IMG/VR virus record: IMGVR_UViG_3300044846_005100
Location: 1 to 64,000 of that record
DNA: 64,000 nucleotides
DNA from: a virus
Strand: one strand, 5' to 3'
This document shows positions 36,342 through 36,668 of the stretch, piece by piece. The position numbers were made by a program, and so were the translations under genes. How positions within the stretch are numbered: position 1 is the first letter of the stretch; each line of letters begins with the position of its first letter. The notes under the pieces are model-generated. The model was not told where the DNA came from. It made no database searches and saw only the letters and a list, made by a program, of their open reading frames with translations.

Positions 36342-36373
36342 AAAAAAAACCCGAATCGTTTGGACTCGGGTTT
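36342..36373 (-). terminator. Intrinsic terminator of putative attenuator 1
   Basis: AAACCCGAGTC-CAAAC-GATTCGGGTTTTTTTT. Confidence 0.8.
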
Positions 36374-36397
36374 CTTTTAGTTTGATATAGTTAAGAT

Positions 36398-36553
36398 TTA
36401 CATCAATTCCCGAGTATTTTTTAAGTGTTGTTTAGGATCAATAATCGTATTTGAGAAGCGCACAACATTAAAATCACAGTTCGTGTTCCAGCTCATCGGC
36501 GAGCTACTTAACGACTGATACGAAGATTTTAATATGTTGTTAATGTTTTTCAT
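36398..36553 (-). CDS. putative leader peptide (51 aa, MKNINNILKS...NTRELM)
   Basis: ATG just after GATAAATA; ends ~25 nt before terminator; not in ORF track. Confidence 0.55.
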   Translation of the reverse strand: MKNINNILKSSYQSLSSSPMSWNTNCDFNVVRFSNTIIDPKQHLKNTRELM

Positions 36554-36668
36554 CGTGTTTATTTATCTTATCAATTTCTAATTTTTAACGCATTGGATCT
36601 TGAGGTTGCTAATATACACCTTTTATTTTAAAATAAAAAATATTTTTAGCTTTTTTTAAATTATTTTT

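What the first reader, a model, noticed from the sequence alone, without database searches (positions are those of the whole stretch)
36342..36567. Leader-peptide attenuator 1 upstream of the tRNA block that leads to the TROVE gene
Seen: late promoter (36560), a 51-codon ORF, an intrinsic terminator, then tRNA-Thr only 8 nt later. The last codons contain ACTCGGG (36409-36415), perfectly complementary to CCCGAGT in the terminator 5' arm. Inference by classical attenuation logic: a ribosome reaching the stop masks the anti-terminator and transcription ends, whereas stalling earlier lets it pair and permits read-through. The leader uses many different amino acids rather than a run of one, so it would sense general translation failure such as tRNA cleavage and switch on replacement tRNAs.
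Basis: partly seen in the sequence, partly recalled or inferred. Interest (0 to 1): 0.75.

Follow-up and report, generated by a model that had tools for sequence, protein, structure and literature searches.

The report
Leader-peptide switch gating phage tRNA genes
A 51-codon mini-gene and a switchable transcription stop signal sit in front of 19 tRNA genes of an uncultured lake phage, and the mini-gene contains every amino acid those tRNAs carry, so the phage probably makes these tRNAs only when ribosomes read their codons slowly; this control is textbook for amino-acid genes, but I found no publication of it for tRNA genes.

Summary
On the minus strand lie a 51-codon ORF (36553-36398), ACTCGGG (36415-36409), an intrinsic terminator (core 36371-36349, U8 36349-36342) and tRNA-Thr 8 nt later.

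The 7-nt complementarity alone is weak evidence: about 0.33 such cases are expected per genome. Comparative data make it strong.
- The module occurs in 12 sequence variants. Both strands are invariant in all of them.
- A hairpin between the two strands, holding the stop codon, keeps pairing through at least five different sequences.
- Synonymous change is suppressed in the last 14 codons.
- In related phages, 13 different terminator families stand just before tRNA genes. Each has its own matching upstream complement at the end of a short ORF (combined p 2e-11).
- Each leader holds the amino acids of the tRNA block it precedes (combined p 2e-13). This leader has all 16 amino acids of its 19-tRNA block and lacks Ala and Gly, which are served by the upstream block behind a second module (38779-38611).

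Best reading (confidence 0.72): a multivalent ribosome-mediated attenuator matched to its tRNA block, rather than a generic translation sensor. The "late promoter" is unverified. Everything is computational.

This scan has noted the same kind before on other phage DNA. I found no publication of it.

The parts
36609..36616 (-). TATATTAG box inside a block that is conserved in all module-1 variants. At the matching place, other modules in relatives have TAnnTTTG followed by GAAAC. It is a candidate promoter element.
   Evidence: Alignments; module print-out. Function not tested.
36559..36567 (-). The ATG follows the 8-mer GATAAATA by 6 nt, so it is either a promoter giving a near-leaderless mRNA or an A-rich initiation region.
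   Evidence: the motif recurs before ORFs at 11-23 kb, 30661, 35832 and 38779; invariance.
36398..36553 (-). Leader ORF, 51 codons plus TAA. It holds 18 different amino acids, among them all 16 of the downstream tRNA block, and has no Ala or Gly.
   Evidence: The ORF is open at 49-52 codons in all variants, and indels are multiples of 3. dN/dS is 0.26. Set match.
36409..36415 (-). Antiterminator strand X' (ACUCGGG, codons 47-49). It lies 15 to 9 nt before the stop codon, inside the footprint of a ribosome standing at the stop.
   Evidence: Invariant in 12 variants.
36382..36406 (-). Hairpin P1. Its 5' arm contains the last two sense codons and the first two bases of the stop codon. It is enclosed by the antiterminator helix.
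   Evidence: It keeps pairing through at least 5 different sequences in relatives.
36364..36370 (-). Strand X (CCCGAGU), shared by the antiterminator helix and the terminator 5' arm.
36342..36379 (-). Intrinsic terminator: A tract, 9-bp stem (36371-36363 with 36357-36349), 5-nt loop, and U8 (36349-36342).
   Evidence: core -12.9 kcal/mol; antiterminator plus P1 -13.0.
36260..36333 (-). tRNA-Thr(tgt), the first gene of the gated block. The block has 19 tRNAs down to tRNA-Cys at 30682, plus ORF72, the TROVE/Ro60 gene at 35102-33474, and Y-like RNAs.
36218..36229 (-). GTTCTTTGACAT, a BoxA-like motif after the attenuator. A second exact copy lies at 38367-38356, after module 2.
   Evidence: only two exact copies in the window; the same motif follows terminators in relatives; PMC3177189 for the BoxA sequence.
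38611..38779 (-). Sister module 2, which gates the upstream block Glu-Met-Arg-Gly-Ala-Leu-Met. It consists of TATAAATAA (38779-38771), a 27-codon leader (38742-38659), GTTGAG across the stop codon (38663-38658) and the terminator (38637-38611).

Best explanation
This is a ribosome-mediated (leader-peptide) transcription attenuator that gates the second tRNA block of the phage.

Proposed mechanism (inferred):
- Transcripts enter from the tRNA-Met side or from a promoter just upstream, and the 51-codon leader is translated.
- As RNA polymerase makes CCCGAGU, this strand can pair with ACUCGGG in codons 47-49. That forms a 7-bp antiterminator helix closed over hairpin P1.
- If the ribosome has read the leader at normal speed, it stands at the stop codon. 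There it melts P1 and covers ACUCGGG. CCCGAGU is then free for the 3' arm, the terminator forms, and transcription ends in the U8 run, 8 nt before tRNA-Thr.
- If the ribosome lags at any codon in roughly the first 43 codons, the antiterminator persists. Polymerase then reads into Thr, Gln, Pro, Lys, Val, the Ro60 (TROVE) gene and the rest of the array.

The leader contains at least one codon for each of the 16 amino acids whose tRNAs lie downstream, and none for Ala or Gly, whose tRNAs lie in the upstream block behind its own leader. The switch would therefore report the supply of exactly those charged tRNAs and feed back on their synthesis.

Shown here: the sequence elements, their conservation, the recurrence of the design, and the match between leader and tRNA block.

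Inferred: translation of the leader, the ribosome geometry, termination efficiency, and the direction of regulation.
For: (1) Elements and geometry.

(2) Before the 3' arm exists, the antiterminator helix enclosing P1 is the predicted structure, with pair probability 0.85-1.0. It is the minimum-energy fold in 11 of 12 variants. The antiterminator plus P1 (-13.0 kcal/mol) and the terminator core (-12.9) are balanced.

(3) Twelve sequence variants were found.
- ACTCGGG and CCCGAGT are invariant.
- P1 changes sequence but keeps pairing.
- The other changes fall in loops and the linker.

(4) Synonymous variation occurs in 16 of 30 codons (8-37) but in 1 of 14 codons (38-51), Fisher p 0.0035.

(5) The ORF behaves as coding. 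It stays open, indels are in frame, dN/dS is 0.26, and there are fewer amino-acid changes than neutral simulation gives (p 0.02).

(6) Recurrence. In 13 distinct terminator families that stand at most 110 nt before a tRNA, each family's upstream complement matches its own stem.
- Perfect complements of 7-10 nt occur in six or more families, depending on how the arm is trimmed.
- Fisher combined p is 2e-11.
- Duplex z-scores have a median of -2.1, against -0.1 for 66 other terminators; Mann-Whitney p 2e-4.
- Where read in the ORF frame, the complement overlaps the stop codon or ends within about 10 nt before it. The stop lies 19-34 nt before the stem.
- The antiterminator has pair probability 0.77-1.0 in the nascent RNA of all 12 families folded.

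(7) Leader versus block.
- This leader covers 16 of 16 block amino acids, Jaccard 0.94, p 0.00025.
- Across 11 non-homologous modules, Fisher combined p is 2e-13 and the pairing-permutation p is at most 5e-5.
- All 11 peptide variants keep the 16 amino acids within the part before the last 8 codons, and 8 of 11 lack both Ala and Gly.
- By strict wobble, 37 of 51 codons are read by downstream tRNAs.
Against: - There are no expression data of any kind. The host is unknown, so coupling of transcription and translation is assumed.
- Both strands of the antiterminator are invariant within this module. True covariation is seen only between module families and in P1.
- No convincing 'protector' (1:2) hairpin or pause site was found, only a 4-bp UCCU:GGGA pairing. 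An untranslated leader would therefore read through.
- Ten codons are not read by any phage tRNA under strict wobble, five of them Ser UCN codons.
- The invariance of codons 38-46 is not explained by the model.
- The promoter is uncertain.
- In three terminator families the complement is weak, 4-5 nt.
Confidence: 0.72

Rival explanations
1. An ordinary small phage gene (a moron-like cassette of promoter, ORF and terminator) lodged in the tRNA array. The terminator simply ends its mRNA and is leaky, and the upstream complement has no regulatory role.
For: The peptide is under purifying selection (dN/dS 0.26). Small ORFs without terminators also sit in the array, such as ORF72 at 35812-35594. 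The 7-nt match alone is expected 0.33 times per genome.
Against: This does not explain four things. Terminators before tRNAs carry matched complements far more often than other terminators. The complement always sits at the ORF end. Synonymous sites there are frozen. The peptides' amino-acid sets equal those of the downstream tRNA blocks. tRNA-Thr has no room for its own promoter, with only 8 nt available.
Confidence: 0.1
2. The terminator/antiterminator switch is real, but it is set by something other than ribosome position. Candidates are a phage or host RNA-binding protein, Nus factors loaded at the BoxA-like motif, or an uncharged tRNA. In this reading the ORF is incidental or plays a separate role.
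For: Codons 38-46 and ACTCGGG are invariant at the nucleotide level, beyond what pairing needs. A BoxA-like motif follows each module. The N-terminal nucleotides of the leaders are conserved between modules.
Against: No T-box or other riboswitch family was hit. The match between leader and block amino acids and the constant spacing from stop codon to stem point to translation. The BoxA-like motif lies downstream of the terminator, so it cannot act on it.
Confidence: 0.1
3. The leader works, as a non-specific gauge of overall translation capacity (for example after tRNA cleavage by a host defence), not as a sensor tuned to the downstream tRNAs.
For: It holds 18 different amino acids in 51 codons. 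A stall anywhere before about codon 43 would free the antiterminator. Five Ser UCN codons and CGG depend on host tRNAs.
Against: Ala and Gly are absent here, and 8 of the 11 variants lack both, while the 16 block amino acids are always kept. Other modules with small blocks have leaders dominated by just those amino acids (L004 1733, L012 12076, L014 1642).
Confidence: 0.08

Closest known systems
Leader-peptide transcription attenuators of enterobacterial amino-acid operons (trpL, hisL, thrL, pheL, leuL; multivalent ilvGMEDA and ilvBN leaders). Textbook knowledge; modelling paper PMC1183508.
   Same: A short translated ORF comes before an intrinsic terminator. An alternative helix shares one strand with the terminator. 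A ribosome at the stop codon favours termination and a lagging ribosome favours read-through. The leader holds codons cognate to what the downstream genes supply. Several amino acids are sensed at once, as in the ilv leaders.
   Different: The regulated genes are tRNA genes (plus a Ro60 gene) of a phage, not biosynthetic enzymes. The leader carries single codons for 16 amino acids, not a run of one. It is long, at 51 codons. No clear 1:2 protector or pause hairpin was found. There is no sequence relationship: the Rfam Thr_leader score of 33 is below the threshold of 55 and is driven by the terminator.
Translation-inhibition-sensing uORF attenuators before antibiotic-resistance genes (for example ABC-F genes found by Term-seq). 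From my own knowledge, not checked here.
   Same: A stalled ribosome on a short upstream ORF lets an antiterminator form and switches on genes that restore translation.
   Different: Those sense drug-stalled ribosomes at particular peptide motifs. Here the leader composition mirrors a tRNA set, and the output is tRNA.
Leader-peptide attenuators before tRNA operons of other phages, noted earlier in this scan (for example e1-4038206, e1-4038560, e1-5402593). These are AI notes, unpublished.
   Same: A short ORF whose codons mirror the downstream tRNAs, wired to a terminator/antiterminator pair. One note describes an all-20-amino-acid leader in a lake phage. L009 9276 here also has all 20.
   Different: This is a different phage group with different sequences. 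Here the genomes lack Shine-Dalgarno sites, two or more modules partition one array, and a BoxA-like motif follows each module.
rrn antitermination BoxA (NusB-NusE site; PMC3177189)
   Same: UGUUCUUUGACA after each module matches E. coli rrn BoxA at 10 of 12 positions.
   Different: This concerns a neighbouring element, not the switch itself. Binding is untested.

Membership tests
Leader-peptide (ribosome-mediated) transcription attenuator | A short translated ORF directly upstream of the regulated genes on the same strand | tested here: met
   The ORF at 36553-36398 is open at 49-52 codons in all variants, with in-frame indels and dN/dS 0.26. Translation itself has not been shown.
Leader-peptide (ribosome-mediated) transcription attenuator | An intrinsic terminator between the leader and the regulated genes | tested here: met
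   A 9-bp stem of -12.9 kcal/mol plus U8, ending 8 nt before tRNA-Thr.
Leader-peptide (ribosome-mediated) transcription attenuator | An antiterminator helix mutually exclusive with the terminator, and conserved | tested here: met
   ACUCGGG pairs with CCCGAGU and is invariant in 12 variants. Matched complements occur in 13 stem families, combined p 2e-11.
Leader-peptide (ribosome-mediated) transcription attenuator | The ribosome's position on the leader decides which helix forms | not testable with these tools
   The geometry fits. X' lies 15 to 9 nt (18 to 12 nt in some variants) before the stop codon, and the stop lies 19-34 nt before the stem in all families.
Leader-peptide (ribosome-mediated) transcription attenuator | Regulatory codons cognate to the product of the regulated genes | tested here: met
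   16 of 16 block amino acids are present and Ala and Gly are absent. Jaccard 0.94, p 0.00025; across modules p 2e-13.
Leader-peptide (ribosome-mediated) transcription attenuator | A protector (1:2) or pause hairpin that synchronises the ribosome and polymerase | tested here: inconclusive
   Only a 4-bp UCCU:GGGA pairing recurs. P1 might act as a pause hairpin, but this is untested.
Rfam RF00506 Thr_leader | Score at or above the gathering threshold of 55 bits | tested here: not met
   33 bits. The aligned part is essentially the terminator.
T-box and other riboswitch attenuators | A match to a curated covariance model | tested here: not met
   No such hit in 36200-36700 at E-values up to 10.

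The most novel reading that the evidence does not exclude
Large freshwater phages of this group split their tRNA arrays into blocks. Each block sits behind its own 'barcoded' leader peptide, whose amino-acid set equals the tRNA set of that block. The virus would thus measure the charged-tRNA supply block by block and set the synthesis of its own translation apparatus (and of Ro60 and Y-like RNAs) by classical attenuation. A BoxA-like site then makes the released polymerase processive. I found no such regulatory class for tRNA genes in the literature searched.
Probability: 0.6. Interest if true: 0.85.

Novelty: new variant of a known kind. Interest (0 to 1): 0.8.

Why it matters
How phages control their tRNA genes is largely unknown, and why they carry them is debated (codon bias, host shut-off, escape from tRNA-cutting defences).

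A leader whose codons mirror the downstream tRNAs would show that the phage makes tRNAs on demand. It would give a direct read-out of which tRNAs become limiting during infection.

It would extend attenuation, a mechanism known for amino-acid operons of Proteobacteria, in three ways: to RNA genes, to viruses, and to a host group that initiates translation without Shine-Dalgarno sites.

The modules are short and portable, so they could serve as sensors of the supply of particular charged tRNAs.

Tried and rejected
- Rfam. The Thr_leader hit (33 bits, E 0.004) looked apt before a tRNA-Thr, but it is below threshold and rests on the terminator.
- GenBank phages. No relative of the leader was found by blastn or tblastn.
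- PHROGs. No family for the peptide.
- Lack of a Shine-Dalgarno site as an argument against translation. Rejected, because the whole genome lacks them.
- A fold-based measure of 'any upstream pairing of the 5' arm'. It did not discriminate, since half of all terminators score above 0.5. I replaced it with exact-complement and duplex z-score tests.
- Covariation inside the antiterminator of this module. Not testable, because both strands are invariant.
- A target-site-duplication origin of the repeated 3'-arm copy. Rejected, because the inner strand co-varies with it between families.
- RiPP-precursor reading of the Ser/Thr/Cys-rich leaders. I did not look for modifying enzymes. The composition is explained by the tRNA blocks.
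- Third candidate (a 52-codon ORF plus the hairpin at 31326-31308, before tRNA-His). The T run is weak and I saw no upstream complement on reading it, so I did not count it.
- Literature. Five searches, three on this kind of control, found no description of attenuators before phage tRNA genes.
I re-ran it from references.

Full report
**What is there**

The window is the first 64 kb of a 140,223-bp virus record. The genome has 32% GC and almost no Shine-Dalgarno sites: 122 of 130 ORFs of 100 or more codons lack one.

Between 38540 and 30682 the minus strand carries 26 tRNA genes, a TROVE/Ro60 gene (35102-33474) and a few small ORFs.

The finding lies between tRNA-Met (36745-36669) and tRNA-Thr (36333-36260).
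- GATAAATA at 36567-36560;
- a 51-codon ORF at 36553-36398;
- ACTCGGG at 36415-36409;
- its complement CCCGAGT at 36370-36364, in the 5' arm of a terminator. The terminator has a 9-bp stem (36371-36363 with 36357-36349) followed by eight T (36349-36342);
- tRNA-Thr, 8 nt after the T run.

A further hairpin, P1 (36406-36382), has the stop codon in its 5' arm.

**Is it more than chance?**

Taken alone, hardly. A complement of 7 nt or more arises in 1.1% of shuffles for this terminator. Over the 30 terminators of the genome, 0.33 such cases are expected.

A fold-based measure of upstream pairing did not single this terminator out either.

The Rfam Thr_leader hit (33 bits against a threshold of 55) is carried by the terminator.

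**Structure**

Before the 3' arm is transcribed, the predicted fold is the 7-bp helix ACUCGGG:CCCGAGU closed over P1. Its energy is -13.5 kcal/mol and its pair probabilities are 0.85-1.0.

In the complete RNA the terminator wins. Without the A/U-tract pairs, the two alternatives are balanced: -13.0 against -12.9 kcal/mol.

**Relatives of this module**

GenBank phages hold none. Uncultured-virus and metagenome collections gave 12 sequence variants in all:
- L001, L002 and L030, through the Ro60 protein;
- L037-L039, through peptide homologues P0002-P0004;
- L040 and L044;
- L052-L056, through a profile search.

What the variants show:
- The ORF is open in all, at 49-52 codons. Indels are multiples of three.
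- dN/dS against L001 is 0.26. Amino-acid changes are fewer than in neutral simulation (p 0.02).
- ACTCGGG and CCCGAGT never change. The tRNA-Thr next door and the middle of the ORF change freely.
- Synonymous variation is seen in 16 of 30 codons (8-37) but in only 1 of 14 codons (38-51), Fisher p 0.0035.
- P1 has at least five different sequences, and all of them pair. All have the stop codon in or next to the 5' arm.
- The antiterminator over P1 is the minimum-energy nascent fold in 11 of 12 variants. It is also the RNAalifold consensus.
- In the L052 group the terminator 3' arm has become an exact copy of ACTCGGG.

**The design recurs with other sequences**

Its parts are as follows:
- TATAAATAA;
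- a 27-codon ORF;
- GTTGAG across the TGA stop;
- 24 nt of spacer;
- a terminator whose 5' arm holds CTCAAC;
- then tRNA-Glu.

This module is kept in close relatives. With a diverged peptide but the same AGT-TGA-G and the same terminator, it also occurs before tRNA-Asp in the more distant L009 and L032.

I then scanned the genome and all fetched loci for terminators. Thirty-five lie at most 110 nt before a tRNA on the same strand. They fall into 13 different stem families.
- Each family is preceded by an ORF-like open frame of 31-86 codons. ATG-started leaders of 18-51 codons were found at all but one site.
- The stop codon lies 19-34 nt before the stem, mostly 23-28 nt.
- Each family has an upstream stretch complementary to its own 5' arm.
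- The perfect matches are 7-10 nt long in six or more families, depending on how the arm is trimmed.
- Where read in the ORF frame, the complement overlaps the stop codon or ends within about 10 nt before it.

Statistics:
- Shuffling the upstream 70 nt gives a Fisher combined p of 2e-11.
- Duplex-energy z-scores have a median of -2.1 for terminators before tRNAs, against -0.1 for 66 other terminators (Mann-Whitney p 2e-4). The two best 'others' are this same module before a tRNA-Thr-like gene that ARAGORN does not call.
- In all 12 families folded, the antiterminator has probability 0.77-1.0 in the nascent RNA.

This is covariation at the level of the family. When the stem differs, the upstream copy differs with it.

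**Leader composition mirrors the tRNA block**

Earlier notes of this scan on other phages prompted this test. I compared each leader with the tRNAs between its terminator and the next module.

This leader holds all 16 amino acids of its block. The block contains tRNAs for Thr, Gln, Pro, Lys, Val, Phe, Leu, Tyr, Asp, Asn, Ile, Ser, His, Arg, Trp and Cys.
- The leader lacks only Ala and Gly. Their tRNAs lie in the upstream block.
- Its only extras are Met and one Glu, in the last three codons.
- The leader of module 2 covers all six amino acids of its own block: Glu, Met, Arg, Gly, Ala and Leu.

The same holds elsewhere:
- L004 9718 has 16 of 16, with only Leu absent.
- L029 1008 has a set identical to its block, 17 of 17 with no extras.
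- L009 9276 has 17 of 17.
- Small blocks have leaders dominated by just those residues (L004 1733, L012 12076, L014 1642).

Statistics:
- Against random peptides of phage composition, the Jaccard match of this leader has p 0.00025.
- Eleven non-homologous modules combine to p 2e-13.
- Permuting the leader-block pairings gives p of at most 5e-5.
- All 11 peptide variants of this leader keep the 16 amino acids within the part before the last 8 codons. Eight of the 11 lack both Ala and Gly.
- In one variant (P0003) the usual Cys position reads Tyr, and a Cys appears three residues later.
- At the codon level, 37 of 51 codons are read by downstream tRNAs under strict wobble. Ten are read by no phage tRNA, five of them Ser UCN codons.

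**Mechanism proposed**

This is classical attenuation. A ribosome that reaches the stop codon in step with polymerase covers ACUCGGG, which lies 15 to 9 nt before the stop, and opens P1. The terminator then forms. A ribosome held up earlier leaves the antiterminator intact, and the block is transcribed.

Because the leader samples each amino acid of the block, the switch would act as a feedback gauge of those charged tRNAs.

Steps shown: anatomy, conservation, recurrence and the composition match.

Steps inferred: translation, coupling, termination efficiency and the direction of control.

Weak points:
- There is no clear protector or pause hairpin.
- The invariance of codons 38-46 is unexplained.
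- The promoter is uncertain. GATAAATAA is invariant and resembles a motif found before other genes, but it stands only 6 nt from the ATG. A conserved TATATTAG box lies about 55 nt further upstream.

**Comparison with what is known**

It works like the trp, his, thr and especially the multivalent ilv attenuators, but it is not related to them in sequence. It differs in its target (phage tRNA genes plus Ro60) and in the one-codon-each layout of the leader.

Five literature searches, three of them on this kind of control, found no description of attenuators before phage tRNA genes.

This scan has reported the same kind on other phage DNA. Those reports are unpublished AI notes, which I treated as leads.

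**Verdict**

It is a new variant of a known kind. Confidence is 0.72, pending any experiment.

Noticed in passing
36229-36218 and 38367-38356 (minus strand); also L004 from 9749, and L012, L029, L034 after their terminators: GTTCTTTGACAT occurs exactly twice in the window, once after each attenuator. Relatives carry TTCTTTGACATAYTGG between the terminator and the first tRNA. With the preceding TG it matches E. coli rrn BoxA at 10 of 12 positions (sequence derived from PMC3177189). It may be a Nus-factor loading site for processive transcription of the array.
   Followed up: partly
38084-38023 (minus strand): A full-length match to the Rfam freshwater-1 RNA motif (86 bits, threshold 72), between tRNA-Gly and tRNA-Ala.
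   Followed up: no
32860-32797 (minus strand): A weak YrlA (Y RNA-like) hit, 33 bits against a threshold of 69, downstream of the Ro60/TROVE gene. Several stretches of 150-800 nt between tRNAs are unannotated (for example 36132-35982 and 37908-37379).
   Followed up: no
36333-36260 compared with L001 4764-4837; L038 and L039 at the same place: The anticodon stem of tRNA-Thr differs from that of near-identical relatives by fully compensated changes. In L038 and L039 it is replaced by a tRNA-like gene that has a TGT anticodon loop but an aberrant D arm, which ARAGORN does not call.
   Followed up: no
33189-33118 (minus strand); L007 7835, L012 5197, L029 7915, L010 7950: Near the Ro60 gene (just after it in L007, L029 and L010, before it in L012), relatives carry tRNAs with anticodon TTA or TCA, which look like suppressors. 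In the window, a 72-nt tRNA with anticodon TAA and no long variable arm lies downstream of Ro60, after tRNA-Phe.
   Followed up: no
Leader starts: 36553, 38742; L004 1733 and 9718, L009 9276, L014 1642, L034 9490: Leaders that are otherwise unrelated share the start M-K-N-x-x-N-I-(L/S) (nucleotides AAYATA at codons 6-7). Many end with Arg or Ile, then Ser (AGT), then the stop. The reason is unknown.
   Followed up: partly
31491-31308 (minus strand): A 52-codon basic ORF is followed by a GC-rich 7-bp hairpin (31326-31308), 6 nt before tRNA-His. The T run is weak and I found no upstream complement. It may be a degenerate or different module.
   Followed up: partly
28990-30615 (minus strand): A 541-aa ORF just after the tRNA array hits a PHROG family annotated as kinase (E 1e-12). 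It is preceded by the GATAAATAATAAAAA motif at 30661.
   Followed up: no
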